A stretch of 64,000 nt of DNA from Chondrinema litorale (GCF_026250525.1 NZ_CP111043.1:1289421-1353420); one strand, 5' to 3'. Shown: positions 43,751 through 64,000, counted from the stretch's first letter. The notes: a model not told the origin generated them from the letters alone. Program-made: numbers and translations.

Positions 43751-43779
43751 TGGGGCAGGTAAACGCTTGCCCCAATTTT
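43751..43779 (+). terminator. possible hairpin terminator after SusD
   Basis: TGGGGCA...TGCCCCA stem followed by ATTTT. Modest T-run. Confidence 0.4.
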
Positions 43780-45078: not shown

Positions 45079-45162
45079 TAAAAATTTAAGCAATTTTTCG
45101 AAGAGAATTTTTAAGGAGTGAGAGGCAATTAACACCTCATTTCTTCTTAACTGAGATTCTTT

Positions 45163-47205: not shown

Positions 47206-47214
47206 TCGTAAAAT

Positions 47215-48651: not shown

Positions 48652-48714
48652 GATTTAAGCACTTTGCATATATTCCCCCAAGCTGTAATGAGTGATTTAT
48701 GGTTTGGGGTTTGT

Positions 48715-49191
48715 CTAACACGCATTTATCACAATACCATCTTTAAACCTCTTTGCTGTTTGAAATGCAGCTTTTAATTTATTTATGTAAAGAAGAAAAT
48801 AATTTTTCCAGAGATCATCATTTAATTCACTACTCTTCATTTTCGAAATATTATAAGCTTCCCTTAAATCTTCTTCTACAATTAATTGTAAAGCATCGCA
48901 TATTTCAGCCGCTAATTCTGATTTTATGTAGAAGGGATCATCAAAATACCTAAAGCTTATTCCATTTATCTCTTTTACTATATTATTTTCAGAATTATCA
49001 CATTTTATCAATAATGGAATAATTTCATCCCAAGATTTATCTAAATAAAAATGTCTTTCTGGGTTATCATGATATTTACCACCCATAAAACAATAATTAT
49101 TATCAAAGTAATCGCTAGCTTCTTCAGGATTCTGAACAAAATAATCGATCATCTTATCTTCTACTCTATAATACTCTTTTACGATACCCAT
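48715..49191 (-). CDS. hypothetical protein
   Basis: 158-aa ORF with no recognisable motif. Confidence 0.35.
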   Translation of the reverse strand: MGIVKEYYRVEDKMIDYFVQNPEEASDYFDNNYCFMGGKYHDNPERHFYLDKSWDEIIPLLIKCDNSENNIVKEINGISFRYFDDPFYIKSELAAEICDALQLIVEEDLREAYNISKMKSSELNDDLWKNYFLLYINKLKAAFQTAKRFKDGIVINAC

Positions 49192-49207
49192 AATTATCCC
49201 ATCTAAT

Positions 49208-49756
49208 TTACATCTTTCTCTCCTCGTATTCTTTTCTGGTAAGTCTGTATTGCACCACGGTTAGGTATTTTTCATCTTTTCTAAAATGCTCTACTAACTC
49301 GGCTTCTTTAATCATTCCATTTTTTTTCATCACTTTGCCTGATGCAGGGTTATCTATTAAATGTGTTGCAAAGATTTTATTCAAGTTTAACACTTCAAAC
49401 CCAAAACTTAACACTGCTCCGGCGGCTTCTGTGGCATAGCCATTACCCCAATATGGTTCACCAATCCAATAACCTAGTTCGGCTTTGTTAAATCGGTTAT
49501 CTATTTTGAGCCCCATACCTCCAATAAACTTGTTGCTTTCTTTTATTGCGACTCTAAAAGTAAATTGAGTTCTTCTTTTAAAACCTTCGTTTGCTGAGTT
49601 AATCCAGTATATGGCATCTTCCTCTTTATAAGGATGTGGGATATTCATAGTCATGTCTGCAACTTTCTTATTACTAGCATATGATACTATGTTAGGAATG
49701 TCTGCTGCTTGCAACTGACTTAACCTTAGCCTTTCAGTTTTTATATCAGAAAACAT
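49208..49756 (-). CDS. GNAT family N-acetyltransferase (RimJ/RimL-like)
   Basis: GNAT motif A (LGYWIGEPYWGNGYATEAA). Confidence 0.7.
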   Translation of the reverse strand: MFSDIKTERLRLSQLQAADIPNIVSYASNKKVADMTMNIPHPYKEEDAIYWINSANEGFKRRTQFTFRVAIKESNKFIGGMGLKIDNRFNKAELGYWIGEPYWGNGYATEAAGAVLSFGFEVLNLNKIFATHLIDNPASGKVMKKNGMIKEAELVEHFRKDEKYLTVVQYRLTRKEYEERKM

Positions 49757-49947
49757 AATTTATTTTTTAAACTTCTAATATATCAGGTTTTGTAATTTAT
49801 TTAATAAATACGAACAAAAGCATTTCTGAGCACCGAAGAAGCCTCACCCTAAAATATGTTATAAAAAATTAACATTATACCTCAAAAAAGTGAAATTTCG
49901 TGTATTTCATAAGCATTTTCTTCGTTACTATGCCAGATTAGATAAAC

Positions 49948-50505
49948 TTGATTAACCTAAATTTCATTGACAAAATGCAAAAAACTACCATTAAAACATT
50001 AGGAATTAAACTGTGCTTTATTGCAGCTTCTACATGGCTATTATTTTCATGCTCTGAAGAAGACGAAGTAACTCCTGTAACTAATCTTTCTTTGGAGGCT
50101 ACAGCTTCAGCGAGTTCTACATACTATGGTTATTCGGCAGATAATATAAACGATGGCGATACTAATACAGAAGTAGGTCCGAAAAGCAGTTGGACCAATT
50201 CTAACAGTAGTACTGATAGTGGAAAACTACCTCAATGGGTGATGTTGGATTTTGGAACAGAGAAATCATTTTCAAGGATAGAATTATATACTTCAGAAGA
50301 TTACTTAATTCAAGATTACCAGTTACAGTATTTTGATGGAGTGGCTTGGCAAACAATTGAGGATGTAACCGACAATACTTTTCTTATTCGATCTCACACT
50401 TTTGACAAAATAATAAGCTCAAAAGTAAGACTATACGGCACCAAAGGACCAGACAACCAGAGTGTTTATGTAAGAGTAAATGAGCTGGAAGTTTGGACTG
50501 AGTAG
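49948..50505 (+). CDS. F5/8 type C (discoidin/galactose-binding-like) domain lipoprotein
   Basis: Lipobox (LFSCSEE). Single discoidin-like domain. 185 aa. Confidence 0.5.
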   Translation: MINLNFIDKMQKTTIKTLGIKLCFIAASTWLLFSCSEEDEVTPVTNLSLEATASASSTYYGYSADNINDGDTNTEVGPKSSWTNSNSSTDSGKLPQWVMLDFGTEKSFSRIELYTSEDYLIQDYQLQYFDGVAWQTIEDVTDNTFLIRSHTFDKIISSKVRLYGTKGPDNQSVYVRVNELEVWTE

Positions 50506-50537
50506 GTAATTCAACCATAATTGTAATTGATGTGCTA

Positions 50538-50578
50538 ACCGAAGCGGGCTACCTGCTTCGGTTTTTGATTTTTTTTAC
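50538..50578. terminator. bidirectional rho-independent terminator between convergent genes
   Basis: ACCGAAGC-GGGCTACCT-GCTTCGGT hairpin followed by TTTTTGATTTTTTTT. Confidence 0.7.
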
Positions 50579-51462
50579 TCCATCCGTTCTCTTTTCTCCA
50601 TATTGTATTTATCACCTTCTTTAAGGAAGTAAAAAAGCTGATTTCTTTCGGGCAGATTTTTTAGGGCGAATCCTTCGCGAGACCAAAAAGTAGTATCGTA
50701 AATCAATACATAGCTTTTACCTATCACCTCAAACTCATTTCCCTGCACCACAACCGCTGTGCTCTCGTCAATACCGATGCCTAATAGCTCAGGCTTGTTC
50801 TTTAAAATATCGAACATATCAAACTGCCTGTTGCGCACCAACACGTGCTGATCTATGGCAATGTTTTTCACAAAACCAAAACCCTCTTCATGGTCACCCA
50901 TCATAATCTGATTGTTTTTTGTGTCGCCTCTCGCCAAATAAGAACCTTGTATGGTCGCTCCTGCCGAAGAGCCACCAATTACGCCTCCTTTATCCAGAAT
51001 TTGCCAAAACATGCCCTCTGTTTTAGTGTCTTTGTAAGCATCTACCAGTCGCCATTGCCTACCTCCACCAAACCAAACTGCTTTGGCATTTTTTAATGGT
51101 TCAATAAAAGCATCAGTATCGGCTGTTTCTCTATCATACGTATGTAGTAAAGTTACATTTGTGGCACCAGCTTCTTTTAATGCAGGTATGGCACTATAAG
51201 TCTCATCATAACTTTCTCCACCTCCTGCTGTTGGAATCACAACAATAGGGGCATCTTTTCCTCCAGCTAATTCTATAAAACGTTTCCAGATTTCGTTGCC
51301 AACTTTACCACCTCCTACAATTACCAAAGAGCCCTTTTGGGGTCCAGTAGTTACAAGTTCTTCTGGTTCACTTTGAGAAAAAGCTATAGTAAAAGTGAAT
51401 AATAAATTTAATAAAAGGAAAGCTGATTTTTTCATGAAATACTTTGTTACGTTTAGGCCCAA
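50575..51462 (-). CDS. peptidase S51 family (cyanophycinase/dipeptidase E-like), secreted
   Basis: Signal peptide. GGSAGA serine nucleophile motif. Class I glutamine-amidotransferase-like fold family. Confidence 0.55.
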   Translation of the reverse strand: MGLNVTKYFMKKSAFLLLNLLFTFTIAFSQSEPEELVTTGPQKGSLVIVGGGKVGNEIWKRFIELAGGKDAPIVVIPTAGGGESYDETYSAIPALKEAGATNVTLLHTYDRETADTDAFIEPLKNAKAVWFGGGRQWRLVDAYKDTKTEGMFWQILDKGGVIGGSSAGATIQGSYLARGDTKNNQIMMGDHEEGFGFVKNIAIDQHVLVRNRQFDMFDILKNKPELLGIGIDESTAVVVQGNEFEVIGKSYVLIYDTTFWSREGFALKNLPERNQLFYFLKEGDKYNMEKRERME

Positions 51463-51760
51463 GACTTAATATTTACAAAATCCACATTGTGTCTTTTTAA
51501 TATTTTCGCTTTTGGTAATACATTTATGTAAAAACTAAAATTAGTAAATTGAAACTGATTTAATTAAGAGGTGAGACGATTAAGCAAAAAAATAAATTCC
51601 CAAAAAAAGCTAGACTTCTTCTATATCAATCTCGTCTAATAAAATGTAATGGACTTAAAACTCTAATAAAGTGCAGTAAATAAAAATTGAGCTTATAAAT
51701 TAGCCGGTAAATACTCGAAAGGGCTTAAGCCTTAACAACAAGTTTAACTAACAAAGAATC

Positions 51761-52246
51761 ATGCGTTTCAACTTCATTTTGCTATTCATTCTACTAACTT
51801 TCAATTTAAAAGCGCAATCTGGCTTTGACTCCAACAACCTTGAGAGTTATTTAAGGCTAGAAAACTACCTTACAAAATCTGATGATATCGATAACACGAT
51901 TAATTATACCTGTGCAGTTTTTATTTCTCCTTCTGAAATTAAAATCAATGAAATAAAGAATGAATGTACACAGGAAGACGATTTTTTTGTAATAGCAGAT
52001 GATAATATCTATTATGCATATAATGCCTCGGAGTTAGTCAATTCTTTAAAAATAAAAACTGTAGATCTAACTTCTGGAACGGTAAAGTTCACCAACCCAA
52101 AAAACAAAGAAAGCTGGATTCTTAATACAGAAAAAGCCGGTGCACCTGGCTGGAACATTATCCTCTATAAGCCAGGTAGAAAACCTGCTTTTAAATCTTC
52201 TATTGACCTAAGCGAAGCAGAAATTAAAACTTATTTTGGTTTGTAA
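51761..52246 (+). CDS. secreted hypothetical protein
   Basis: Signal peptide. 161 aa. Confidence 0.35.
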   Translation: MRFNFILLFILLTFNLKAQSGFDSNNLESYLRLENYLTKSDDIDNTINYTCAVFISPSEIKINEIKNECTQEDDFFVIADDNIYYAYNASELVNSLKIKTVDLTSGTVKFTNPKNKESWILNTEKAGAPGWNIILYKPGRKPAFKSSIDLSEAEIKTYFGL

Positions 52247-52265
52247 GTAAGATAAATCACATACT

Positions 52266-52994
52266 TTGGATCAAACGAACCTCGCCACATACCTCAGTAT
52301 AGCATTACCCATTTTGGTTATGCTACTCGTTTCCATTATTCAAAAACCAATAAGGTTTAAACTAGTTATCCCCTTTGTAATAATAGTAGTTGCTTGGTTT
52401 TTCGGAATAAGAGTATTAAATAAATTTATTGAGTTTTTAATTCTGTATTCCTCAATAACAATTGTTTTAGTCTATTTGATTAAGCGACCTGTAGATAGCC
52501 ATAAAATAGCTAAACTGTCTACAGTTTTAGTAATGTGGGCGATAGTAATTATAGTATTTTTAGGGATATTTAGTATCAAACCCATCCGGCTTATTATAGT
52601 TGTACTAGCCTACCCCGGATTTATAGGAGCTCTTATTTTTTTCTATAAAAGAATTCCAAAATTAAAAAATGCCATCATTGCGATAGTTATTCTTGCTCAT
52701 ACATCCCTCTCAATCTTTATAGGAATTGGCAGTTGGAGCGGATACTTTTCTGAACAAACAATAAAGCCGTTAAGCAAAAATAACTTTATCATTTTTAAGA
52801 CAAATGGCGCATTTCTCCACTCTTATCTAAGCTGTACATTGGCTAAGAATTTTTTCGGTAAGTATATCTATTTTGAAGTTGATACAATTGCATTTAATAG
52901 TGGCAAAATTGAAGATGCGATAATTAAAGAAGATGATGAAAACCAACAGATACGAGTAACAGTAGATGAAAAAACAGAAGTGCTTCAATGGTAG
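52266..52994 (+). CDS. integral membrane hypothetical protein
   Basis: Six predicted TM helices. Confidence 0.4.
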   Translation: MDQTNLATYLSIALPILVMLLVSIIQKPIRFKLVIPFVIIVVAWFFGIRVLNKFIEFLILYSSITIVLVYLIKRPVDSHKIAKLSTVLVMWAIVIIVFLGIFSIKPIRLIIVVLAYPGFIGALIFFYKRIPKLKNAIIAIVILAHTSLSIFIGIGSWSGYFSEQTIKPLSKNNFIIFKTNGAFLHSYLSCTLAKNFFGKYIYFEVDTIAFNSGKIEDAIIKEDDENQQIRVTVDEKTEVLQW

Positions 52995-53014
52995 ATTTAT
53001 TGAGTATAGATAAA

Positions 53015-53581
53015 TCACTTCCTCTTTTTTCTTTTCTTTTGAGCGCTTAATTGTTTCTTTAATTTTGGAGACTTTATCCAACTTTCGCCAAATCGATGAT
53101 TTAGCCCAAATTCAATATCATTTATCATTTGTGAGTCAGATTGTTTCTCAATTTCTTCATTAAGGTAAGCTCTAACTTCTATCACTAATTCTTCATCCCA
53201 ATTTACCATACCACTGGCTTTTGCGCTATCAAAACTACACCTAGAATAATGAAGATACTCTAACACATATGTTGTTTTACTCTTCTCGATTAATGCTTGA
53301 CCGATTTCACCTAAATATCTATAACACCCAAAAGCTTTAACAGAAGTTTCGCAATGAGCAACAAATAAGTCCCTTAGTAATTCAACTGAAACTTCATATT
53401 TTAGGTGTCTTATTTTTTTACTGACATCGGTTCTAAATACATCATTAAGATCATAATATCCTCCCTGCTCATCCTCAAAACAGTTAAAGCGAATTTGATC
53501 TAAATCTACTTTAGAAATATAGTTTAATATAAAATTTTCAAGCTCTTGAGACATCGATGAACTGTGGGTTAATTTTAACAT
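53015..53581 (-). CDS. hypothetical protein with basic C-terminal tail
   Basis: 188-aa ORF ending in KKRKKRK. Confidence 0.35.
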   Translation of the reverse strand: MLKLTHSSSMSQELENFILNYISKVDLDQIRFNCFEDEQGGYYDLNDVFRTDVSKKIRHLKYEVSVELLRDLFVAHCETSVKAFGCYRYLGEIGQALIEKSKTTYVLEYLHYSRCSFDSAKASGMVNWDEELVIEVRAYLNEEIEKQSDSQMINDIEFGLNHRFGESWIKSPKLKKQLSAQKKRKKRK

Positions 53582-53901
53582 AAAAAGGTTAAAAACCTTT
53601 AAATTTTAGTAAAATCGAAGTATTACAACCTATATTTAGGCATAAAAAAAGTATTAGCAATCTGATTTTCAAATCTATATTTTGAATATCTATTTCAACC
53701 TTCAGCATGGAAAATAAAAATTACTTCTTGATAAAATCGAGCTTGTACTCCCTTTCATTTATTTTTTATTACTCTCAATCTCACTTCCAACTTCTAACAT
53801 AAAACACAAAATTAAAGTGCTTCATTATCTACAAATGCAAGCTATAATAGTGCTACCTACTATAACTAATAGTAATTAAAAGTAATACTTTATATAACCT
53901 A

Positions 53902-54600
53902 GTGAATAATATTTTCAATCTTATAAATTTTCATAAAAACATGAAATACCTTTATAGCACATTATTATTAATTATCATTTCTTTCTCTGCCAATGCACAA
54001 CTCAGCAAAGGGCTAAAACAAATTGGAGGATCGATTAATGCATCTCATTCAAAAACAAACTCAGAAAACCCTGGATATATATCATCCGATATTTATGATG
54101 ATAGCAGGACTAGCTTTAGTTTTTCACCTTCTTTTGGGTTCTTCATAAAAGATAATATTAGTTTAAGTGCAGGATTGGGCTATAATTATTTAAAAAATAT
54201 ATCAGAATACCCTGATGATGAAGGAACAACTAAGGAAACTTTCAAAAACAAAAGTTTTACGTTCACAATCAATAGCCGCTTTCACAAATCAGTTACAGAC
54301 AACTTTTATCTTTTTTTGCAACCATCTGCAAGCGTAAGTATCGGTAACAGACAATACGAACAACATGAAGATGAAGGCACAAAATACTACACATTTTCAT
54401 TAGGAATTAGTCCAGGTTTGCTATTTATGATTAATGAAAAATTTGGCATTGAAAGCACTTTTGGTTTTTTAGGTTATACCAAATCTAAAAATAAGCCTTA
54501 TGATGATTCTCAAACCCTCCCAAATTCAGAAAATAATAATCTAAATTTTAACTTATCTCCAAGTACATTACAGTTTGGCTTTCGATATTATTTCGAGTAA
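53902..54600 (+). CDS. outer-membrane beta-barrel (porin-family) protein, paralog 1
   Basis: Signal peptide ending ANAQL, then KGLKQIGGS. C-terminal YYFE. Clearly paralogous to the next gene. Confidence 0.5.
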   Translation: MNNIFNLINFHKNMKYLYSTLLLIIISFSANAQLSKGLKQIGGSINASHSKTNSENPGYISSDIYDDSRTSFSFSPSFGFFIKDNISLSAGLGYNYLKNISEYPDDEGTTKETFKNKSFTFTINSRFHKSVTDNFYLFLQPSASVSIGNRQYEQHEDEGTKYYTFSLGISPGLLFMINEKFGIESTFGFLGYTKSKNKPYDDSQTLPNSENNNLNFNLSPSTLQFGFRYYFE

Positions 54601-54661
54601 GACCTTAATTATCTAAGCATAATTAATTTAAAACAGCTCCTACCATAAATAATCGAATACC

Positions 54662-55309
54662 ATGAAATACATATATAGTACATTTTTACTAATCATCATC
54701 TCCATATCAGCACATGCACAATTAGATAAGGGATTGAAACAAATTGGTAGTTCATTCTCATTCAATTCAAGAGATTTTACCAATGAAAATGTGAACACCG
54801 CTTACGACGACAATGATTTTACATTAAATATATCTCCTAGATTCGGGTATTTCATAAATGATAATGTGAGTATAGGTTTTGGATTAGGATATACCAGTAT
54901 TAATAACAAAACTGAGGTTCTAAGAAACAACTCCTCTATACCCATAAATTACAAGACAACAACAAACACTTTTGATTTTTCAATTTTTAGTAGATTTCAT
55001 AAACCTATTACAGATAAGTTTTATGTTTTTTTACAACCATTTGCCTCAGCAAGTTTCGGTAAAACGCATAGTGATGAATATACTGATAATCAACAGGTAA
55101 GAAGCTTAGACATTGGTATGTCGCCAGGCCTATTATATATGATCAATAAAAACTTTGGACTTGAAAGCACTTTTGGATTTATTGGTTATAACCACTATAG
55201 TACAAAAGCTGTAGACAATCCTAGAACAGCTACAGAAACCTCACGGAATAACATTGGCTTAGATTTATCTACCTACACTTTAGAGTTAGGGTTGTATTAT
55301 TATTTTTAA
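54662..55309 (+). CDS. outer-membrane beta-barrel (porin-family) protein, paralog 2
   Basis: MKYIYSTFLLIIISISAHAQLDKGLKQIGSS. Conserved blocks shared with paralog 1 (RFHK.ITD.FY.FLQP, ESTFGF.GY). Confidence 0.5.
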   Translation: MKYIYSTFLLIIISISAHAQLDKGLKQIGSSFSFNSRDFTNENVNTAYDDNDFTLNISPRFGYFINDNVSIGFGLGYTSINNKTEVLRNNSSIPINYKTTTNTFDFSIFSRFHKPITDKFYVFLQPFASASFGKTHSDEYTDNQQVRSLDIGMSPGLLYMINKNFGLESTFGFIGYNHYSTKAVDNPRTATETSRNNIGLDLSTYTLELGLYYYF

Positions 55310-55403
55310 GAAATGATTTTAGCTAAAAAGCTGTTGAATCATCTAGCTTCAACAGCTTTTTTATTGCAAAATTCGTAATACACAAAATAATATGTGGCCC
55401 CGA

Positions 55404-55450
55404 CAGGATTCAAACCTATGAGGTCACATGTTTGATTACCAGAACGTTAC
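55404..55450 (-). other. 3' fragment of a tRNA gene (T-arm plus acceptor 3' strand), probable att site at the boundary of an integrated island
   Basis: Minus-strand reading ...CATAGGTTTGAATCCTGTCGGGGCCA gives a T-stem/loop (GGTTTGAATCC) plus a 7-nt acceptor strand and discriminator. No matching 5' acceptor strand or D-arm can be found upstream, so it is not a complete tRNA. Confidence 0.45.
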
Positions 55451-55511
55451 ATTACTTTGTAACATTGGTGTACACAAAGTAGAAACAATTTTTTTCATGC
55501 TTTTACCCTGG

Positions 55512-55919
55512 TTATGCATACACCCTAATCTTTCCCAACTGAATACTTGCCATACTCTTAACCTCTTGAAAACCTGCTATTATAGCTGTTACCTGCTTTT
55601 CAAGAACAGTAATCTTTTTCTGGAGTATTTTATTTTCTTTTTCACTTGTCTCTATATTGGGTTTTGTAACTTTTTTACTTGAAGAAATCGACACTTCATC
55701 TAAAAATGGATCACCTTGGTCTGCTATAAACCAATTTAGATTGATGTTAGGATGTAGCTCTTTCATTTTAATTACAAAATCCATTGGTACTTCATGTTTT
55801 CCATCCCAATATCTTTTGAGCATATTAGTAGTTTTTTGAAAATGGTTAACTAGCTGATATTTATCAACCTCCTTCCATTCACCAAAAATTAAACTAAGTT
55901 TATCTGATTGGTTTTTCAT
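55512..55919 (-). CDS. hypothetical protein (first gene inside the putative island)
   Basis: 135-aa ORF. Confidence 0.35.
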   Translation of the reverse strand: MKNQSDKLSLIFGEWKEVDKYQLVNHFQKTTNMLKRYWDGKHEVPMDFVIKMKELHPNINLNWFIADQGDPFLDEVSISSSKKVTKPNIETSEKENKILQKKITVLEKQVTAIIAGFQEVKSMASIQLGKIRVYA

Positions 55920-56665
55920 GAAAATTTACTTTTATTTAGGAAATAAATTTGGAAAATATATTTTGCATAAATACTTTTGAAAAACAAATTTACGAAATGA
56001 TTATACAAAATTCATTTACAAAATAACGTAAATTATTTTTAAATGATTACTTTTTATGTAAAAAAGTACCAACCAAAACTCAATTATCTATGTTTAAAAC
56101 GATTTATAAAGCTTTAAATGAGAATAGAGTTGATGATGCAAAAAGAATATGTATTCAACAACTTCATTTACAGAATAAAAGAGTTAAAAAGTCGAACGAA
56201 AAAAGATTATTGAAGGTAAATAAATAAAAAAAGCCAAGTGCTACCAACACCTGGCTTCAAGTTCAACTGTGAAATCAAACTTTTTTATAGACATGACAAA
56301 TAACGTAAAAAAAGATGAAAATTCTATCTGGCAACACAGAAGAAATTTCAACAAGCAGTGTGAAATCGAGAATCGGCAGAAGAATCGAGTAAAAAAGCGA
56401 GATACAGAAAAGCCTTTGATTCTTAAATATTTATAATTTTTCACACTCAAGAAATTCAAATAATGTTAACAACAGCTTATATAATATTAGGGATAGTTAT
56501 CCCCTGCTTGCTCATTTTACAGTATGTTATCTCCAGAAAGATTAAAAGGGAGAATGATGAACTTTTTGATAATGGGTGAAGCTTTGACTTGCCAAAGGTT
56601 AAGCCTTCACTCAATTAAGGGCTAAAAACTTGATTAAGTTTTCTAGTCTTTCCTTATAAAAGATA

Positions 56666-56694
56666 CCATGAAAGCTTAATAAGCTTTCATGGTG
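56666..56694. promoter_or_regulatory. perfect 13-bp inverted repeat ACCATGAAAGCTT-aat-AAGCTTTCATGGT
   Basis: Read directly, about 75 nt upstream of the 56770 gene. Confidence 0.5.
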
Positions 56695-56769
56695 TTCACC
56701 AAAAGTCAAGGGCAGCCAATCCCAACCACAGTCCCGGCTACCCTAATGAAATAGAAACTGCCTAAAATT

Positions 56770-58074
56770 ATGGAAAATATTAAGGATATTAATGTTTTGA
56801 AAAACTTTTTTTTGAAAATATTTACCCGAAATTACGTAGAAAAAAAGGACTATTATAGTAGGTTCTTTGGTGTATTTGCCGTTTTTACTCTTATCAGTAT
56901 TGCAGCGCAATGTTATTCTGGTTATTCAGAATTAAGCTTTTTTGAAGCTAATTTGGCATTTTTAAAGCTCCCTCATCCTTTTTACTTTGCTCTACTAACT
57001 ACAGTTCTATTTGAAATATTCAAGTCCATAGTAACCTTAAAGTTTTTTCACGAATTTTTGGGATATCCTAAATCATTTAATCTCTTTTTTTTATTATTAT
57101 CTATTACATGTATAGGTGGCTCTATCTGGTTTAGTATGCATGGTATTGAAAGAAAAACAGTAAAGAATTTCTCTCCTCCCCCAATAGATGAAAAAACGAA
57201 CAATACAGATCAAATATTCAAAAACAATTTAGCTCAAATTGATAATACCATTAAAGATATTCAATCCCGCTACACCTATCAAGGAACAGTTTATATACCA
57301 AAGTCTGGCAATAAATGGCATTCAACTGATCAAGTATCTATTGATCGAGAAAAACTAAATAAACTGGAAACTCAAAAGTCAGAACTCATTAGTGAACATA
57401 CCAAACAAAGAGCTACTCTTATAAAAGAGTTTGAATCCAGTTTAAACTCTTATAATAATAAGCTTTTAGGAGCTTTACAAGAAAACAGATATAATGTGAT
57501 ATTCTCGGAAAGTATCTACATCATATGTATGATATTTAATTGTATTTTTTCCTTTAAATCAGCATTGGAATATAGTAGTCAATCAAGTAACAACAATCAA
57601 GCACCACCTCCCAATCTTAAAGAAAAAACAAAGCAAAAAGGAGTTAATCTCAATCAAAACACCCTTGAAAAACATCAAATGAATGGCAGTCCATTCAATG
57701 ATAGCAATCTAAAGATTTTTAGGAATGAGGTTGAAAGCCAAAACAATGAAAATATGCCTTTAGGTAATGTTACTGAGACAGTAACACAGTTCGAGAAATA
57801 TACAGAATTAGGACTTACTAAAGCCCCAGAAGGATACGAACCACGAAAATGTAAATGTTGTGGTCAACCTTTTTTTGCCAATGTAGTTAATGAATCCTCT
57901 AATAAAAAAATATACTGTTCAAAAGAATGTGCAGACAAGAAAAGAAAGGAACATACCTATAAAAAAAGAGAGGAAAGAAAATTGGATAAATTAAAGCTTG
58001 TGGAAAGCAGTTTAGACTCTGCTCAGCAATGTATTTTATGGAAAAAAACTGGCACTGACAATGAAGAAAATTAA
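56770..58074 (+). CDS. membrane protein with four TM helices, coiled coil and C-terminal CxxC...CxxxC zinc-ribbon
   Basis: Hydrophobic segments. C-terminal PRKCKCCGQPF...CSKECADKKRKEH. Confidence 0.4.
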   Translation: MENIKDINVLKNFFLKIFTRNYVEKKDYYSRFFGVFAVFTLISIAAQCYSGYSELSFFEANLAFLKLPHPFYFALLTTVLFEIFKSIVTLKFFHEFLGYPKSFNLFFLLLSITCIGGSIWFSMHGIERKTVKNFSPPPIDEKTNNTDQIFKNNLAQIDNTIKDIQSRYTYQGTVYIPKSGNKWHSTDQVSIDREKLNKLETQKSELISEHTKQRATLIKEFESSLNSYNNKLLGALQENRYNVIFSESIYIICMIFNCIFSFKSALEYSSQSSNNNQAPPPNLKEKTKQKGVNLNQNTLEKHQMNGSPFNDSNLKIFRNEVESQNNENMPLGNVTETVTQFEKYTELGLTKAPEGYEPRKCKCCGQPFFANVVNESSNKKIYCSKECADKKRKEHTYKKREERKLDKLKLVESSLDSAQQCILWKKTGTDNEEN

Positions 58075-58102
58075 ACCAAATAGCAACTAGACAATTACCA
58101 TT

Positions 58103-58537
58103 ATGGAAAAAGTAATACATAAAGTCATTGAGTCTGAAAAACCGATAAGGCTCTTACATAAGCATATTAAAGCCTACAATAAAGATAAGTCACTTGGTCT
58201 TCAAATTAGAGAACAACACACAAAAACTGCTGAGACTATTTTTAAAATTGCCATCAAGAAAAATGTGAACTTTTCTAACCCATTACACACCAGTTTAGTG
58301 GAACTGGGGCAGGAAAGATATGTATGTGGGTATTTTAAAGACAATGGTGCATCTATCGCTTCACAATTAAATATCCATGTAAAAAGCTTAGATAGTCATA
58401 TAGAACGGCTTGCAATAGCAGGTATATTAACCGCTTATAAAGTAACTCTAAACGGTGGAAATATCAGAAGAAAAGGGAATCATAAAGAAACCCTTTTTGC
58501 CATCAACAGTCAATTTTTTAACCTAAGCAATCAATAG
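58103..58537 (+). CDS. hypothetical protein
   Basis: 144-aa ORF. Confidence 0.35.
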   Translation: MEKVIHKVIESEKPIRLLHKHIKAYNKDKSLGLQIREQHTKTAETIFKIAIKKNVNFSNPLHTSLVELGQERYVCGYFKDNGASIASQLNIHVKSLDSHIERLAIAGILTAYKVTLNGGNIRRKGNHKETLFAINSQFFNLSNQ

Positions 58538-58738
58538 AATGATATCTGAATTTCATAATCTGCCACCACCGTAAATTAATCTTTCATATTCGAGAAAGTG
58601 AAAAATTGTGCGCACAATTTAGAGACTTTAAATAATGTCTATAACAACGTAAAAACAGGCAAGTGAAATTTCTTTGCCTTTACTTTCCGAAGTACTTGGA
58701 ATACTTTTCCACCTTCTGGAAGTAAGGCCTTACTGTGT

Positions 58739-58806
58739 CAGAAAGACTTACCTAAAAACTTTCTGAAATTACTTACAGAAAATACTTTCAGAAAGCTTTC
58801 AGAAAG
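58739..58806. repeat. array of four CTTTC(A/T)GAAAG palindromic iterons (two perfect tandem copies at 58785..58806)
   Basis: Read directly: TCAGAAAGA, CTTTCTGAAA, CTTTCAGAAAG and CTTTCAGAAAG within 70 nt. Confidence 0.6.
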
Positions 58807-58807
58807 T

Positions 58808-59089
58808 GTGAGAAGTAGGAAGAGTTTTGAGCATAAAAGAAAAATTTCAAAAATGATGAATGGTTCAAATTTGATGAATAGTGCAGAAAAAGAGCGAAAG
58901 TACAGGTGCATTGTAAAAGTATCAGGTGAAAAGTTTGTAAAATATAATACCAGTAACCTGCTTGATTTTACTGATTTTTTAGATAAAAAGTATCCAAATT
59001 GGCGCTGGTTCAATGTCTACAACAAAAAAAACAGAAAGCAAATAGGCAGTTTTACAAAAAAGCGAAGACCTAATCAAAAAAATATTTAA
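58808..59089 (+). CDS. small basic protein, hypothetical
   Basis: 93-aa Lys/Arg-rich ORF starting immediately after the iteron array. Confidence 0.25.
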   Translation: MRSRKSFEHKRKISKMMNGSNLMNSAEKERKYRCIVKVSGEKFVKYNTSNLLDFTDFLDKKYPNWRWFNVYNKKNRKQIGSFTKKRRPNQKNI

Positions 59090-59214
59090 GACGCAGGAAA
59101 AGAGTATCATAACTCTTTATTGCTTGGCAACTGCAACTAAAAATAAGTTGCAACAATTCAAAAGGGGGGACATTTATTAGTCCTCCCATCATTTAAACCA
59201 ATTCAGTAATTACC

Positions 59215-59805
59215 ATGCAATTAAAATACACAAATAGAGAAGTATCAGAAATGAGTATTTCTGATTTAATGAAAGTTATTAATAACCCATCAGTGGTTGA
59301 AATCTCTAGAAAGAATGCTAGAGATAGTTTGGATGCATTGATCAAAGAGCACTATATCAAACAAAATGCTTTTTCACCAATAAATACTCTTTCGAAGTGT
59401 CAAAAGAACTCTTTGATAAAACTGTGGGTAGTATTTAAAAATTCAAAAAAAACTGAGGGTTGGGTAGAAAGGTATTACAGCATAGATTATCCTCATGAAA
59501 GAGAGCTATTTAAAGACCAAGAACTCATTGAAACCCGACTAAAAAATGAAAACATTCATTTTGTAAAAAACTTCTATGGTTATAATAAACCTCTTACTGG
59601 CTATAAAAAGTTATATGATTTAGCAATGAATTACTACAGACAAGGCAGAGTTTTGCACATGAAATTCTACTTAAATACAGTGTATGAACAACAGGAAAAT
59701 GGAGAGTTCATGCCTAAAGAATTATATGGTTGGTCGATTGACAATTCATATAAACAGTATAATCAAAATAATGACTCAACTGGAAAAATTATTACAATGA
59801 TTTAA
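59215..59805 (+). CDS. hypothetical protein
   Basis: 196-aa ORF. Confidence 0.35.
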   Translation: MQLKYTNREVSEMSISDLMKVINNPSVVEISRKNARDSLDALIKEHYIKQNAFSPINTLSKCQKNSLIKLWVVFKNSKKTEGWVERYYSIDYPHERELFKDQELIETRLKNENIHFVKNFYGYNKPLTGYKKLYDLAMNYYRQGRVLHMKFYLNTVYEQQENGEFMPKELYGWSIDNSYKQYNQNNDSTGKIITMI

Positions 59806-59970
59806 TTATGATTTTATAAAACTTATTCTTTTCACTCAGAATAAACACCTTAAATTAGGCATCTATATATCATTTACTTGATATTATAATTGAATGATCT
59901 TAATATATTCGAATTGCAAATTATGTATTTTTAATTTAATGATTTTATCTACAATTATTTGTATAATTGA

Positions 59971-60444
59971 GTGTTGATTTTAAAAAAAAAGAAGCTGAAA
60001 ATGAAGTTAGATAACTTTAAGCGATATCAAAATGGACTAACTTTAGATACTTTATTTCCAAAATTAATGGGTGTTTGCGCATGTGGTTGTGCAAATAAAC
60101 TAGAAGGAAGGCGAAAAAAATGGTATAGTGATGAATGTAGAAAAAAAGCACTTTTTGAATTTTATATTATAAAAGGAGATCCTACTTTTATAAGAAAACT
60201 ACTTTTTGAAATTGATAAAGGATTTTGTAGAAGTTGTGGCTCTTCCGATGAAGAATGGGAAGCAGATCATATTATACCAGTAACATTGGGAGGTGGAGCC
60301 TGTGGACTAGACAACTACCAAACATTGTGTAAACATTGCCATATTGAAAAATCAAAATTAGATACTATCCCAAATAGCTCTTATGTTTTTACATCCAGAT
60401 TTAATATCATTTGTAATTCTTATTATCGAATTAGGGCAGATTGA
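59971..60444 (+). CDS. HNH endonuclease domain protein
   Basis: CRSCGSSDEEWEADHIIPVTLGGGACGLDNYQTLCKHCHIEKSKLD HNH motif with paired Cys ligands. The C-terminal tail probably over-extends into the convergent gene. Confidence 0.65.
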   Translation: MLILKKKKLKMKLDNFKRYQNGLTLDTLFPKLMGVCACGCANKLEGRRKKWYSDECRKKALFEFYIIKGDPTFIRKLLFEIDKGFCRSCGSSDEEWEADHIIPVTLGGGACGLDNYQTLCKHCHIEKSKLDTIPNSSYVFTSRFNIICNSYYRIRAD

Positions 60445-61041
60445 AGTAAAATCTCTAAAAACATCATAAGATATACAAAGCTTGTTATCTAGCTGTTCAT
60501 TATCAAATACAATATTTTCAATTGCATACATGTATAGAATTGCAGAAATATATTTAGATGTATCTTCTGGTAATTCTGTACTTTGACTAATATGAACTTT
60601 ACCTATTCCGAATTTATTTATTCCTTTATTGTTTACTTTCCTTATTATGATATCTGGATTAACACTTACATCAACTCCTTCAATTATTATATTCTTTTTA
60701 TGAATATCTAAAGCAGAATAAATTAAGTTTTTATTTATTGCATTCGTGTTCAACACAAATTCTAAGGCCTCAATTGAATTCCTTTTTTCATTTTCTAAGA
60801 AATCATTATTAATACCTTTATTTCTTAGATAATCTAAACATTTTAAAATAATCTCAGCATTAAAGTTACTTTGTAGATAAGCATTAATTGCTTTTCTTGC
60901 ATCAGAATAATAAGTATAAGTAAAACGGTTTTCATCTGGATTTTTGAATGTTTCAAGAATTTTACGTTGACGTGTAGAATTGGCCGTCAAAAATTCGCCT
61001 AGCTTATTTATAGAAATTTTTGGTGTGTTCTTATTAGTCAT
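60358..61041 (-). CDS. hypothetical protein
   Basis: 227-aa ORF convergent with the HNH gene. Confidence 0.4.
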   Translation of the reverse strand: MTNKNTPKISINKLGEFLTANSTRQRKILETFKNPDENRFTYTYYSDARKAINAYLQSNFNAEIILKCLDYLRNKGINNDFLENEKRNSIEALEFVLNTNAINKNLIYSALDIHKKNIIIEGVDVSVNPDIIIRKVNNKGINKFGIGKVHISQSTELPEDTSKYISAILYMYAIENIVFDNEQLDNKLCISYDVFRDFTSICPNSIIRITNDIKSGCKNIRAIWDSI

Positions 61042-61261
61042 GATAATAAATTATTATAAATCAGAAAAAACTACTATTATTTGATCAAAGTCATAAATTA
61101 ATCAAATAATAGTAAATATATTAATTATTCAAATAATTGACTCCTAATAAATTATTGATTCAAAACATCAAATATTAGATGATTCTCTTAATAAAATCTA
61201 TAGAAAGTAGTAGGGTAAATTATATATATTTAGTCAACCAATTAAATAACAAACTAATCAG

Positions 61262-61771
61262 ATGAAGGATCTGCTAAATAAGATATCGTCATATAACATT
61301 TTCAATTATCTGTTCCCTGGTGTCTTATATGCAGTCATTATAAGTAAAATAACAAAAATTAATATCTTACAAGAAGATATACTTGTTGGAGCTTTTCTTT
61401 ATTATTTCATAGGTCTTGTCATAAGCCGTATTGGTTCTTTGTTAATTGAACCATTTTTAAAGAAAATCAAATTCATAAAGTTTGCTGAATATTCTGACTT
61501 TATTCAAGCATCTAAAGATGATCCAAAAATTGAGGTTTTATCAGAATCAAATAACACTTATAGAACTCTGACTTCATTATTTTTTTTGATTATTATTTCC
61601 AAAGTCTTTTTATTGTTATCAAATAAATACCAATGGCTTATAGACTATAAATGGTATTTTATCTCCAGTAGCCTTTTAATAATGTTTGCTTTTTCTTATA
61701 GAAAACAGACTATTTATATCACAAAAAGAATTAAAAATTCATTGAAAAGTAAAAACAGAATTATATCATGA
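61262..61771 (+). CDS. integral membrane protein (four TM helices), hypothetical
   Basis: Hydrophobic helices. 4-nt overlap (ATGA) with the downstream MBL gene. Confidence 0.4.
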   Translation: MKDLLNKISSYNIFNYLFPGVLYAVIISKITKINILQEDILVGAFLYYFIGLVISRIGSLLIEPFLKKIKFIKFAEYSDFIQASKDDPKIEVLSESNNTYRTLTSLFFLIIISKVFLLLSNKYQWLIDYKWYFISSSLLIMFAFSYRKQTIYITKRIKNSLKSKNRIIS

Positions 61772-62643
61772 GCAATCATTGTGAAGTTGTCTTTTGGGAT
61801 GTGCAACATGGTCATATGACATATATTAAAACTCCTAATAACAGACATATTGTAATAGATTTGGGAACTGGGGATTATTCAAAAGGAATTGAGAATTTTA
61901 GCCCATTACTTCATCTAAAAAATAAATACAAAGTAAATCAGCTTGATTACGTTATCATTACTCATCCCCACCTAGATCATATTGACGACATTCTCAATTT
62001 TGATGCTTTGAAACCAAGAGTATTACTTAGGCCAAATCATTTAAGTAATGATGAAGTAATGGAGAGAGTACTTGAAAGAGACAGAGCAAAATTTGAAAAA
62101 TATTGTGAAATAAATAATAGATACAACCAACCAATTGATCCAAGTTCAATTGATGATAAATCAAATCCTAGTAATTGGGGTGGGCTTGAAATAAAAACCT
62201 TTATTCCAAAATCTTGTAATCATAACAATTTTAATAATCATAGTATAATAAGTGTTTTTGAATTTGCAAATATAAAAGTTGTAATACCTGGAGATAATGA
62301 AAAATGCTCTTTTGACGAGCTTATGTCTAAAAATGATTTTGTTGAAGCTATATCAAATGCTGATATTTTACTAGCTCCTCATCATGGACGTATGTCAGGA
62401 TTTAATAACGACTTTGTTAAGGCTGTAAATCCTAGAATAACTGTTGTATCAGACTCCAAGTTTTGTGACACAAGTGCTAATGCAAATTATACTGCAAAAA
62501 GTAGAGGATGGACTGTACACAATAAAAGTAATTTCACTTCAAAACAAAGAAAATGTTTAACAACAGCTTCTGATGGAGAAGTGGTAGCACATTTTGGATA
62601 TCAACCAAGTGGCAGGAGTTATCTAAAGGTAATGATTAAATAA
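61768..62643 (+). CDS. metallo-beta-lactamase-fold hydrolase (ComEC C-terminal-domain-like)
   Basis: HPHLDHIDD (HxHxDH) motif. N-terminal VVFWDVQHGHMTYIKTP..IVIDLG resembles the ComEC MBL domain. Downstream His and Asp ligands (LAPHHGR). Confidence 0.55.
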   Translation: MSNHCEVVFWDVQHGHMTYIKTPNNRHIVIDLGTGDYSKGIENFSPLLHLKNKYKVNQLDYVIITHPHLDHIDDILNFDALKPRVLLRPNHLSNDEVMERVLERDRAKFEKYCEINNRYNQPIDPSSIDDKSNPSNWGGLEIKTFIPKSCNHNNFNNHSIISVFEFANIKVVIPGDNEKCSFDELMSKNDFVEAISNADILLAPHHGRMSGFNNDFVKAVNPRITVVSDSKFCDTSANANYTAKSRGWTVHNKSNFTSKQRKCLTTASDGEVVAHFGYQPSGRSYLKVMIK

Positions 62644-62892
62644 GAAAATTGAACTTGCTGTTATATGATAATCATAATTTTTGATTTCCCCTTTTTGTGA
62701 ATGGATCAAAAAGTATTTTTGAAATTCTTTTACATTAAAAAAGTAAATAATGATAATTTCACCAAATTAAATATATCGTTTAATTTTAACAGGGTATTAG
62801 CATTACGTCTATTATATTCATTATTTGAATATTAAGCTATTCTGATGCTTAATAAATTTTTTTCTTTTTTAGATATTTAATAGAAATATATA

Positions 62893-64000
62893 TGCATGTT
62901 AAAAAACTAAAAATAGTAAAGTTATATGGTTATATTGATAAAGTAATTGACTTCAATCATGACTTAACTATACTTGTCGGAATTAATGGGGCAGGAAAGA
63001 CTAGTATATTAAATATTGTTAATTGGATTCTTAGGCCATCTCTACCAAATTTATGTGTGACCGACTTTAAGTCACTCACACTATTTTTTGAATACCAAAA
63101 AGAAAATTACGAAATAAATTGCATCCATTATAAATCAACTTTTCGCTATAAATTGAAGGTAGGGAGCAGTCAAATGCATCCTCTTATAGTGAAATTGAGA
63201 GAACATCCCTCAAATATTGAAAATAATGAAAATCTTAAACAACAAGTACTTCAAAGTTATTTGCATCTAGGTCCAGATGATAAGGAGAAAAAAACTTGGC
63301 AAGTTATTTCTAAATTCCCAAAACCAACAGTTGTAGGTTTAGATAGACATTTATATGCAGAAGAGTCTGAACAAGTATTTGTTGAAGACAGCTTGAAAGG
63401 AGATGTCATTAGAAGAAAACAAAAAGTGTCTATTTCTCCACTTGATCGTGTAAAGGAAATAATAAATAAAGAATATAGAAAACAAAAAAACTCAATTCTT
63501 AACCTTACAAATTCTCTTAAAAATCACTTAATGCTTTCGGCTTTTAATGGAAGTATTACTGAAGAATCCTTTTCAAGTGGAATTAGATACAAACTCACAT
63601 ATCAACAAATAGAAAATGCTGAAAATCGAGTACATGACTATTTTGAGAATTTTGAAGAGACAATCTTTGGAGATTCGGAAAAGGAAACAGTAAAAAAATA
63701 TTTTTCTGATTTAAAAGCTATTACTACAGAATATCAAAATAACCCTGAAAAAGACATTGTAAAACTCCTATACGGATTAAATGCAAACCAATTTATAAAA
63801 GTCAGAAAACTACTTCGTGAATTCGAAAAATTTGAAGAAAAAGTTTCAAAAACAACTGCACAAATTCAAAACTATTTACAAACTTTAAATTATTTTTTTA
63901 AAGATTCTGGTAAGGAAATAGCGTTTAAAGAAGATACTTTTGAATTAACTTTTAATACAATTAATAGAAAAGGAGAGATAGAAATCAAATATAAAGATAT
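62893..64000 (+). CDS. SMC/RecF/OLD-like ABC ATPase, 5' partial (runs off the window)
   Basis: N-terminal KLKIVKLYGYIDKVIDFNHDLTILVGINGAGKTSILN P-loop of the RecF/SMC/OLD ABC class. Long alpha-helical region follows. No stop before the window end. Confidence 0.6.

What the first reader, a model, noticed from the sequence alone, without database searches (positions are those of the whole stretch)
55404..64000. tRNA 3'-fragment marks the edge of an AT-rich integrated island carrying HNH, MBL and ABC-ATPase genes
Seen: at 55404-55450 (minus strand) there is a sequence with the T-arm plus acceptor 3' strand of a tRNA (GGTTTGAATCC...CGGGGCCA). No 5' half is present. This is the classic remnant direct repeat left when an integrase-encoding element inserts into a tRNA gene.

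Everything to the right, to the window end, changes character. It has many A/T runs, long intergenic spaces, short hypothetical genes, an HNH endonuclease, an iteron array, a membrane plus MBL-hydrolase pair and an SMC/OLD-like ATPase.

Inference: the intact tRNA and an integrase lie beyond the window. The cargo looks like a defense or mobile-element island.
Basis: partly seen in the sequence, partly recalled or inferred. Interest (0 to 1): 0.6.

Follow-up and report, generated by a model that had tools for sequence, protein, structure and literature searches.

The report
Genomic island inserted in tRNA-Arg gene
A 23-base leftover of a tRNA-Arg gene marks one edge of a foreign DNA island of about 38 genes in the marine bacterium Chondrinema litorale; the island carries anti-phage defence genes, and this is a clear but ordinary example of a well-known kind of insertion.

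Summary
Window 55395-55417 (minus strand) is the last 23 nt of a tRNA-Arg(CCT) gene, not 55404-55450.

Twelve contig types from close relatives carry the intact tRNA at this spot, between the same outer-membrane-protein gene and an inositol monophosphatase (IMPase) gene. Similarity to the relative L001 runs through the left flank and the 23 nt, then stops at 55417/55418.

The window comes from the Chondrinema litorale chromosome. Protein accession numbers there run in gene order. The outer-membrane protein is UZR95299 and the IMPase ortholog (97% identical) is UZR95338. So 38 coding genes, roughly 30-40 kb, sit where relatives have only the tRNA. The window holds the first ten.

The island is AT-rich (28.8% GC against 35.3%). 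It carries:
- an HNH nuclease;
- the untested two-gene defence candidate PDC-M48 (membrane protein plus MBL hydrolase);
- an AriA-like (PARIS-type) ABC ATPase.

It shares a 3.6-kb module and one later gene with a large orphan-rich element in Tara Oceans contigs. That element holds restriction-modification genes at the matching position.

The intact tRNA copy and an integrase were not seen, because the rest of the genome could not be reached. The "iteron array" is not supported.

Verdict: a new member of a known kind.

The parts
54662..55309 (+). Last chromosomal gene before the island: an outer-membrane beta-barrel protein (UZR95299.1). It is the second of two tandem paralogs.
   Evidence: Pfam OMP_b-brl 1.4e-08. 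Exact match to the C. litorale protein. Syntenic in L001 and L027-L032. Tandem paralogs seen as repeats D1/D2.
55326..55360 (.). Terminator-like hairpin after the outer-membrane-protein gene. It is part of the conserved chromosomal flank, which runs to 55394.
   Evidence: The sequence reads AAAAGCTGTTGAA...TTCAACAGCTTTT. It is nearly identical in L001 (alignment A2).
55395..55417 (-). Displaced 3'-terminal 23 nt of tRNA-Arg(CCT), the predicted att remnant. It has two T-loop differences from the intact gene of relatives (C56>T, T59>A).
   Evidence: The intact tRNA-Arg(CCT) is at the syntenic site in relatives. This variant has 0 exact matches in metagenome contigs.
55418..64000 (.). Left 8.6 kb of the inserted island. 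The whole island is 38 coding genes (UZR95300-95337), an estimated 30-40 kb, and continues beyond the window.
   Evidence: Similarity to L001 stops at 55417. Accession arithmetic. GC 28.8% against 35.3%.
55512..55919 (-). 135-aa regulator-like protein (UZR95300.1), transcribed divergently from the conserved module. No family assigned.
   Evidence: No Pfam, PHROG, NCBIfam or PADLOC hit. 25% identical (E 5e-12) to the 151-aa protein in the same position of the Tara element.
56221..59806 (.). Conserved 3.6-kb module shared with the Tara Oceans/MAG element: 96.2% identity over 56221-59152 and 84.5% over 59223-59806.
   Evidence: blastn against L006-L013 and L021.
56221..56769 (-). About 550 nt within the module with no convincing ORF. 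It has two terminator-like hairpins on the minus strand (56258-56230 and 56693-56665). Function unknown.
   Evidence: Fold z-score -3.85. No Rfam match.
56770..58074 (+). 434-aa orphan protein (UZR95301.1): about four transmembrane segments, a coiled middle region and a C-terminal Cys-rich, zinc-ribbon-like motif.
   Evidence: Only two homolog clusters among 5.8 billion proteins: 96% identical in the Tara/MAG element, and a 41% identical C. litorale paralog, UZR95961. Transmembrane segments. Weak NinG-like C-terminus. No PDB relative.
58103..58537 (+). 144-aa protein of the module, with a weak DUF4423-like match.
   Evidence: Pfam 5.8e-4, below the cut-off. Conserved in L006-L012.
58738..58806 (.). 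Cluster of TTTCWGAAA(G) palindromes upstream of a small ORF. At most it is a candidate operator.
   Evidence: Tandem-repeat rows with scores 44-76. Three of the window's six TTTCWGAAA sites lie at 58760-58805. Sequence shown.
58853..59089 (+). 78-aa small ORF of the module.
   Evidence: Called as a 78-aa gene in the Tara contigs.
59215..59805 (+). 196-aa orphan protein, the last gene of the shared module. It is more diverged than the rest (84.5% at the DNA level).
59971..60444 (+). Small HNH endonuclease. The annotated start probably lies downstream of 59971.
   Evidence: Pfam HNH 5e-10. PHROG HNH families down to 3e-13. The ORF from the GTG start is not in the protein collection.
60358..61041 (-). 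227-aa orphan protein, convergent with the HNH gene and overlapping its end.
   Evidence: No significant hit in any library or in the PDB.
61262..61771 (+). PDC-M48A: small membrane protein of an untested two-gene phage-defence candidate.
   Evidence: PADLOC PDLC04670 2.9e-66. Transmembrane segments. PDC systems are untested candidates.
61768..62643 (+). PDC-M48B: MBL-fold hydrolase (UZR95308.1), overlapping the M48A gene by 4 nt.
   Evidence: PADLOC PDLC04675 1.4e-153. Pfam Lactamase_B 1.2e-07. Accession.
62892..64000 (+). AriA-like ABC ATPase (UZR95309.1, 452 aa). The window holds its first 369 codons.
   Evidence: 100% identical to P0001. Best PADLOC match AriA 3.6e-30. Best PDB match AriA of PARIS, 8ux9/8v45, 5e-21.

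Best explanation
**What it is.** Window 55395-55417 is the displaced 3' end of the C. litorale tRNA-Arg(CCT) gene. It marks the far junction (opposite the predicted integrase end) of a horizontally acquired island of about 38 genes. The island lies between the outer-membrane-protein gene and the inositol monophosphatase (IMPase) gene.

**How it most likely arose.**
- The established route is site-specific recombination by a tyrosine integrase carried on the element.
- The crossover would fall inside the last 14-23 nt of the tRNA gene (T-loop to 3' end), against a matching site on the circular element.
- The element's own copy of that segment would regenerate a working tRNA next to the IMPase gene, about 30-40 kb to the right on the minus strand, probably beside the integrase.
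- The original 3' end would be left here as a non-functional direct repeat.

**What it carries.**
- The island has a backbone shared with a large, orphan-rich integrative element found in Tara Oceans populations of a close relative.
- It also has a variable cargo slot. In C. litorale the slot holds an HNH nuclease, the PDC-M48 membrane/MBL pair and a PARIS-like AriA ATPase. In the Tara element it holds an NgoPII-type restriction-modification pair.

**Shown:** the remnant, the break in gene order, the empty sites in relatives, the island's size in genes, its composition, and the identities of the cargo.

**Inferred:** the integrase, the regenerated tRNA and direct repeat, the position of the crossover, and any present-day mobility.
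For: **Remnant and junction.**
- The 23-nt remnant matches the 3' end of the intact tRNA-Arg(CCT) of relatives at 21 of 23 bases. Such a match occurred in 0 of 100 shuffles.
- The left flank is about 97% identical to L001 up to and through the remnant. Similarity ends at 55417/55418.

**Empty sites.** All 12 contig types from two related populations have outer-membrane-protein gene, intact tRNA-Arg(CCT), IMPase gene with nothing between.

**Size and resumption of gene order.**
- The window proteins are C. litorale UZR95290, 95296, 95299, 95300, 95301, 95308 and 95309, in strict positional order.
- The 97%-identical IMPase ortholog is UZR95338.
- So 38 coding genes are inserted and gene order resumes afterwards.

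**Composition.** GC is 28.8% against 35.3%, lower than all 469 equal-sized windows on the left.

**Mobile-element kinship.**
- Window 56221-59806 is 96% / 84.5% identical to Tara contigs.
- Island protein UZR95315 is in the same 90% cluster as a Tara-element protein.
- That element encodes a primase (BT4734-like_N and PriCT_2 domains), a DUF5906 protein, an excisionase-like HTH protein, a ParB-like protein, an ArdC-like anti-restriction protein and several restriction-modification systems.

**Cargo.** PDC-M48A/B, AriA-like ATPase and HNH nuclease.

**Mechanism.** The split-and-regenerate model for islands in tRNA and tmRNA genes is established knowledge (Islander paper, PMC4383910).
Against: - The other end is unseen: no integrase, intact tRNA or second copy of the core lies in the window.
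- The rest of the chromosome could not be fetched.
- The related Tara element sits elsewhere. The tRNA-Arg site is empty in every Tara contig. The fetched parts of that element show no tRNA, no core sequence and no integrase.
- In the Tara element, primase and other genes lie where the window has the remnant. So the C. litorale island may be rearranged, truncated or composite.
- The remnant differs from the relatives' tRNA at two T-loop positions. This fits either decay or an origin on the element side, and the data cannot tell which.
- The size in genes rests on accession order. It is not a measured length.
Confidence: 0.8

Rival explanations
1. The fragment is a decayed tRNA pseudogene left in place, with both flanks still in the ancestral order and no insertion.
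For: The remnant has two T-loop changes, and one of them (C56>T) would cripple a tRNA. No second copy of the core is visible.
Against: The right flank is not syntenic. None of L001 10758-20061 is found in the window. The IMPase ortholog is 39 accession numbers away instead of adjacent. The 5' 50 nt of the tRNA are absent altogether, not merely decayed.
Confidence: 0.02
2. The breakpoint in the tRNA gene comes from an event not driven by an integrase, with no regenerated tRNA. Examples are a rearrangement, or a replacement by homologous or illegitimate recombination.
For: No integrase or second att site has been seen. The related Tara element is not at this site.
Against: The break lies exactly in the T-loop-to-3'-end segment, which is the classic integrase target in tRNA genes. 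Gene order resumes after a discrete block of 38 coding genes. The block has foreign composition and mobile-element genes. The same neighbourhood in relatives holds integrase-bearing elements at the nearby tmRNA gene, so targeting of tRNA-type genes is active in this lineage.
Confidence: 0.08
3. The 38-gene block is a composite of two or more elements integrated one after another at the same tRNA, or a truncated remnant that can no longer move. It would not be one intact element. This is a variant of the best explanation and does not exclude it.
For: The Tara relative has five more genes (286, 104, 222, 525 and 299 aa) and a type I restriction-modification region beyond the regulator, where the window has the att remnant. 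The regulators are only 25% identical although the adjacent module is 96% identical, which indicates a mosaic. The remnant has diverged.
Against: Only one remnant is seen in the 8.6 kb available, and there are no internal copies of the core. A different circular permutation of the same element would also explain the different gene order.
Confidence: 0.3
4. The island is a prophage.
For: The HNH nuclease and several small ORFs have PHROG hits. PARIS systems are often carried by phages or satellites.
Against: No capsid, terminase, portal or tail families were found in the window part or in about 45 kb of the related Tara element. There is no DNA match to 50,697 phage records. Three IMG/VR scans found nothing.
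Confidence: 0.07

Closest known systems
Genomic islands integrated in tRNA or tmRNA genes (the class catalogued by Islander, PMC4383910)
   Same: A displaced 3' fragment of a tRNA gene sits exactly at the break in gene order. Relatives have an empty site with the intact tRNA. The inserted block has foreign composition and accessory cargo.
   Different: The defining partner features (regenerated tRNA, direct repeat, tyrosine integrase) lie outside the window and were not seen. The backbone consists almost entirely of orphan genes.
Defence-cargo hotspots in integrative mobile elements
   Same: A conserved backbone (the 434/144/78/196-aa module on one side, the 141/148-aa genes on the other) brackets a slot with different defence genes in different hosts. 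The slot holds HNH, PDC-M48 and an AriA-like ATPase here, and an NgoPII restriction-modification pair plus an IS4 element in the Tara element.
   Different: The element family is undescribed. No phage, satellite or Bacteroidota conjugation hallmark genes were recognised.
PARIS (AriA ABC ATPase plus AriB TOPRIM nuclease; PMC11464382)
   Same: The 452-aa ATPase matches AriA best, both in PADLOC (3.6e-30) and in the PDB (8ux9/8v45, 5e-21), and is of similar length. A 62%-identical homolog is followed by an AriB-like ORF (1.8e-07).
   Different: The partner gene in C. litorale lies beyond the window. Similarity to AriA is confined mostly to the C-terminal half. Activity is untested.
PDC-M48, a PADLOC phage-defence candidate (bioRxiv 10.1101/2024.01.29.577857)
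   Same: Both genes match the PDC-M48A and PDC-M48B models over their full length. They are adjacent, on the same strand, and overlap by 4 nt.
   Different: PDC systems are computational candidates with no experimental proof of defence.

Membership tests
Genomic island integrated in a tRNA gene (Islander definition) | A displaced fragment of the target tRNA gene at one end of the island | tested here: met
   55395-55417 matches the 3' 23 nt of tRNA-Arg(CCT) at 21 of 23 bases, with 0 of 100 shuffles giving such a match.
Genomic island integrated in a tRNA gene (Islander definition) | A regenerated intact tRNA gene at the other end, sharing a direct repeat with the fragment | not testable with these tools
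   The far end lies about 30 kb beyond the window. The C. litorale chromosome is absent from the DNA collections. There is no second core copy in the window.
Genomic island integrated in a tRNA gene (Islander definition) | An integrase (usually a tyrosine recombinase) encoded in the island | not testable with these tools
   None among the 10 island genes in the window. UZR95310-95337 could not be read.
Genomic island integrated in a tRNA gene (Islander definition) | The same site is unoccupied in related genomes, with both flanks conserved | tested here: met
   12 contig types have outer-membrane-protein gene, tRNA-Arg(CCT) and IMPase gene adjacent. C. litorale has 38 coding genes between the two orthologs.
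Genomic island integrated in a tRNA gene (Islander definition) | Composition unlike the host chromosome (supportive, not required) | tested here: met
   GC 28.8% against 35.3%; 0 of 469 equal-sized windows on the left are as low.
PDC-M48 candidate defence system | Adjacent genes matching the PDC-M48A and PDC-M48B models | tested here: met
   2.9e-66 and 1.4e-153, both full length.
PDC-M48 candidate defence system | Protection against phage | not testable with these tools
   PDC systems are untested candidates.
PARIS (AriA/AriB) | An AriA-type ABC ATPase | tested here: met
   Best PADLOC hit AriA 3.6e-30. Best PDB hit AriA 5e-21.
PARIS (AriA/AriB) | An adjacent AriB TOPRIM (DUF4435) nuclease gene | tested here: inconclusive
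   The partner lies beyond the window end. In the 62%-identical homolog's locus, the ORF after next downstream (205 aa, following an 88-aa ORF) matches AriB at 1.8e-07.
Prophage | Capsid, terminase, portal or tail genes | tested here: not met
   None in the window part or in the related Tara element. No phage DNA or IMG/VR match. The unseen 28 genes remain open.
Bacteroidota-type conjugative element (ICE/CTn) | Tra-type type IV secretion genes, a relaxase and a coupling protein | tested here: inconclusive
   No Tra or relaxase families were found in about 45 kb of the Tara relative. Only primase, ParB-like and ArdC-like proteins were recognised. The ends of that element and the rest of the C. 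litorale island are unseen.
Iteron array (replication-origin repeats) | Several regularly spaced direct repeats of about 17-22 bp | tested here: not met
   Only short palindromes at 58738-58806 and weak 13-nt tandem-repeat rows at 55941-56024.

The most novel reading that the evidence does not exclude
The island and its Tara Oceans relative may belong to an undescribed family of large integrative elements (35 to more than 50 kb) of marine Flammeovirgaceae.
- Their backbone is almost all orphan genes, with no recognisable phage structural, Tra-type conjugation or relaxase genes.
- It includes a 434-aa membrane and zinc-ribbon protein known from only two clusters among 5.8 billion proteins.
- The elements carry at least two exchangeable defence-cargo slots.
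- They may move by a transfer or packaging system not yet described.
Probability: 0.3. Interest if true: 0.45.

Novelty: new member of a known kind. Interest (0 to 1): 0.3.

Why it matters
- It pins one island boundary to within 23 nt. It also gives a clean occupied-versus-empty comparison for tRNA-Arg(CCT) in a little-studied marine lineage of the Cytophagales.
- It places an untested defence candidate (PDC-M48) and a PARIS-like ATPase in an exchangeable cargo slot of a mobile element. That is supporting context for their defence role.
- It points to an orphan-rich family of mobile elements that may be worth describing.
- None of this changes current understanding of how such islands form.

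Tried and rejected
**Extending the contig.**
- Exact-protein look-ups for the MBL protein, the outer-membrane protein and the full ATPase found no indexed contig.
- The one genome-contig scan returned only a relative, not C. litorale itself.
- The far end therefore had to be inferred from accession order.

**Walking further along the Tara contigs.** As a result, about 10 kb of scaffold_558 and about 4 kb of scaffold_610 to the right stayed unread.

**Searches that found nothing.**
- The 434-aa family in JGI metagenomes.
- Three IMG/VR scans, with the ATPase, the 434-aa protein and the ArdC-like protein.
- The island DNA against phage records. Against plasmid records there was only a 173-nt match in Clostridium plasmids.
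- The exact remnant variant in metagenomes.
- Copies of the att core in the Tara element loci.
- Rfam matches for the remnant region and for the 550-nt non-coding stretch.
- NCBIfam and PHROG hits for conjugation or phage structural genes in the Tara backbone.

**Readings considered and rejected.** Pseudogene in place, prophage, and iteron-bearing replicon (see the rival explanations and membership tests).

Full report
**Observation.**

Read on the minus strand, the window contains ...ATAGGTTTGAATCCTGTCGGGGCCA at 55419-55395. This reads as a T-arm, a 7-nt acceptor 3' strand and a discriminator A. ARAGORN finds no tRNA anywhere in the window. Rfam finds nothing at gathering thresholds, and no tRNA match even at E<=10 around the site. 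No trace of a 5' half is present.

**Identity of the fragment.**

One scan of species-representative genomes with the neighbouring outer-membrane protein (54662-55309) returned a single relative, L001. This is contig PBYL01000424.1 of a metagenome-assembled genome (MAG) labelled Thalassovita. That label is evidently wrong: the contig is about 34% GC and 92.7% identical to this window over 8.3 kb.

- In L001 the outer-membrane-protein gene and its terminator are followed directly by an intact tRNA-Arg(CCT) on the minus strand. ARAGORN reports it and Rfam scores it at 69.7 bits.
- L001 1-8282 aligns with window 43964-52247, and L001 8285-10757 aligns with window 52971-55417. Nothing of L001 10758-20061 is in the window.
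- Base by base, the flank is nearly identical. The identity runs through TGGCCCCGACAGGA(T/A)TC(A/G)AACCT and stops (alignment A2).
- The remnant is therefore window 55395-55417, which is 23 nt with two T-loop differences.
- A match within three mismatches occurs once in the window and in none of 100 shuffles.

**Insertion, not decay.**

The window belongs to the Chondrinema litorale chromosome (4,938,441 bp; Cytophagales, Flammeovirgaceae). Exact protein look-ups give these accessions:

| Window gene | Accession |
|---|---|
| Sulfatase | UZR95290 |
| 242-aa ORF | UZR95296 |
| Outer-membrane protein | UZR95299 |
| 135-aa protein | UZR95300 |
| 434-aa protein | UZR95301 |
| MBL hydrolase | UZR95308 |
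| ATPase | UZR95309 |

- The accession numbers follow gene order at all seven check points.
- The gene just beyond the tRNA in L001 encodes an inositol monophosphatase (IMPase). Its C. litorale ortholog is 97% identical and is UZR95338 (WP_284685119, against WP_284685080 for the outer-membrane protein).
- So 38 coding genes lie between two genes that relatives separate only by the tRNA. Gene order then resumes.
- At the window's density of about 0.88 kb per gene, the island is roughly 30-40 kb. This length is an inference.
- The same empty arrangement, with an intact tRNA-Arg(CCT), is seen in seven further Tara and other metagenome contig types of the close relative. It is also seen in four contigs of a more distant relative whose IMPase is 83% identical.
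- The orientation fits the standard model for islands in tRNA genes (PMC4383910). The truncated 5' side of the fragment faces the island, so the regenerated gene and probably the integrase should sit at the far, IMPase-proximal end.

**Composition.**

The island part is 28.8% GC against 35.3% to its left, lower than all 469 equal-sized windows on the left. The adjacent 2.4 kb of flank is already 29.7% GC, so composition supports the boundary but does not define it.

**Contents of the island within the window.**

- **55512-55919 (minus strand):** a 135-aa protein with no family hit. It is a 25%-identical positional counterpart of a 151-aa protein in the related element.
- **56221-59806:** a conserved module holding a 434-aa protein, then 144-aa, 78-aa and 196-aa proteins.
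  - The 434-aa protein has about four transmembrane segments and a C-terminal Cys-rich motif.
  - It has only two homolog clusters among 5.8 billion proteins: the Tara/MAG copy at 96% identity, and a 41%-identical paralog elsewhere in C. litorale, UZR95961.
- **59971-60444:** an HNH nuclease.
- **60358-61041 (minus strand):** an orphan 227-aa protein.
- **61262-62643:** the membrane plus MBL pair. It matches PADLOC PDC-M48A and PDC-M48B over full length, at 2.9e-66 and 1.4e-153. PDC systems are untested candidates predicted by "guilt by embedding" (bioRxiv 10.1101/2024.01.29.577857).
- **62892 onward:** the first 369 codons of a 452-aa ABC ATPase.
  - Its best matches are AriA of the PARIS system, in PADLOC (3.6e-30) and in the PDB (8ux9/8v45, 5e-21).
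  - In a 62%-identical homolog's locus, the ORF after next downstream is AriB-like.
  - The C. litorale partner gene lies beyond the window.
- **"Iteron array":** at most three TTTCWGAAA palindromes at 58760-58805 and weak tandem-repeat rows.

**Relatives of the element.**

Tara Oceans contigs and contigs of the same MAG carry the module at 96.2% identity (56221-59152) and 84.5% identity (59223-59806), but nothing else of the window's island.

- To the right of the module they hold an NgoPII-type restriction enzyme and a C5 methyltransferase, two orphan genes and an IS4 transposase. The window holds HNH, the 227-aa protein, PDC-M48 and the AriA-like ATPase at the matching position.
- Further right comes a long same-strand run of orphan genes (141, 148, 492, 410, 220, 150, 112, 120, 312 and 74 aa). 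After that come a ParB-like protein and an ArdC-like anti-restriction protein.
- The 148-aa protein falls in the same 90% cluster as C. litorale UZR95315, six genes beyond the window. So the two elements share backbone on both sides of a variable defence slot.
- To the left of the regulator, the Tara element continues with 286-aa, 104-aa (excisionase-like HTH) and 222-aa proteins, a 525-aa DUF5906 protein and a 299-aa primase with BT4734-like_N and PriCT_2 domains. Beyond these lie a PLD-family nuclease and a type I restriction-modification system. The window has the tRNA remnant there instead.
- No phage structural, Tra-type or relaxase families were detected.
- No tRNA, att core or integrase lies in the fetched parts.
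- The Tara element is not at tRNA-Arg, since that site is empty in every Tara contig.

The C. litorale island is therefore a mosaic relative of that element. It may be a different circular permutation, a truncated form or a composite.

**Mechanism.**

The best-supported reading is classic site-specific integration into the 3' end of tRNA-Arg(CCT).

- The crossover would fall within the last 14-23 nt of the gene.
- The two T-loop differences in the remnant (C56>T and T59>A) would be harmful in a working tRNA.
- This exact variant has no match in 241 million metagenome records.
- The differences reflect either decay of the displaced piece or sequence from the element side of a crossover lying 3' of position 59. 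The data cannot tell which.
- The integrase, the regenerated tRNA and the direct repeat are inferred, not shown.

**Limits.**

The C. litorale chromosome beyond the window could not be read with the available collections. The island's size rests on accession order.

**Verdict.**

The finding is correct in substance: a genomic island bounded by a tRNA fragment and carrying defence cargo. It is a textbook phenomenon, so interest is modest. The one less ordinary aspect is the orphan-rich backbone shared with an undescribed marine element family.

Noticed in passing
L001 13126-13532 (+) and 13608-14891 (-); L034 4398-5534: In relatives, a tmRNA gene (Rfam 122.5 bits; ARAGORN missed it) lies 2.3 kb from the tRNA-Arg. 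An integrase gene follows it directly. In L001 the integrase comes with RepB_primase and DUF5906 genes. In L034 a different integrase comes with a prophage tape-measure gene. The neighbourhood therefore holds two integration hotspots in tRNA-type genes.
   Followed up: partly
window 52248-52970: A 723-bp stretch that is absent from L001. It holds an orphan 242-aa ORF (UZR95296.1, alone in its protein cluster). This is a small insertion or deletion in otherwise collinear DNA.
   Followed up: no
window 53941-54600 and 54662-55309: Two tandem paralogous outer-membrane beta-barrel genes, 74-78% identical at the DNA level. They are only 72% identical in protein to the relative's copies, although the downstream intergenic DNA is about 97% identical.
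   Followed up: no
window 56221-56769: A stretch of about 550 nt with no convincing ORF, 96% conserved with the Tara element. It has two terminator-like hairpins on the minus strand and folds better than shuffled sequence (z = -3.85). There is no Rfam match. It could be a non-coding RNA or a regulatory region.
   Followed up: partly
C. litorale UZR95961.1 (outside the window): A 41%-identical paralog of the 434-aa module protein lies about 660 genes away in the same chromosome. This suggests a second related element in the genome.
   Followed up: no
L006 13907-15031: The IS4 transposase in the Tara element's cargo slot is in the same 90% cluster as C. litorale transposases UZR97855.1 and UZR98900.1. 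One of those is on a 267,758-bp replicon. This points to recent exchange of mobile DNA between these lineages.
   Followed up: no
L001 (PBYL01000424.1) and other contigs of MAG GCA_002729595.1: The MAG is labelled Thalassovita/Thalassobius, which are Alphaproteobacteria. These contigs are about 34% GC and about 93% identical to C. litorale (Bacteroidota). The label, or the binning, looks wrong.
   Followed up: partly
window 38887-48651: A SusC/SusD-sized gene pair (1109 and 501 aa; these two were not scanned) lies upstream of a confirmed sulfatase gene. This looks like a polysaccharide-utilisation locus in the chromosomal part left of the island.
   Followed up: no
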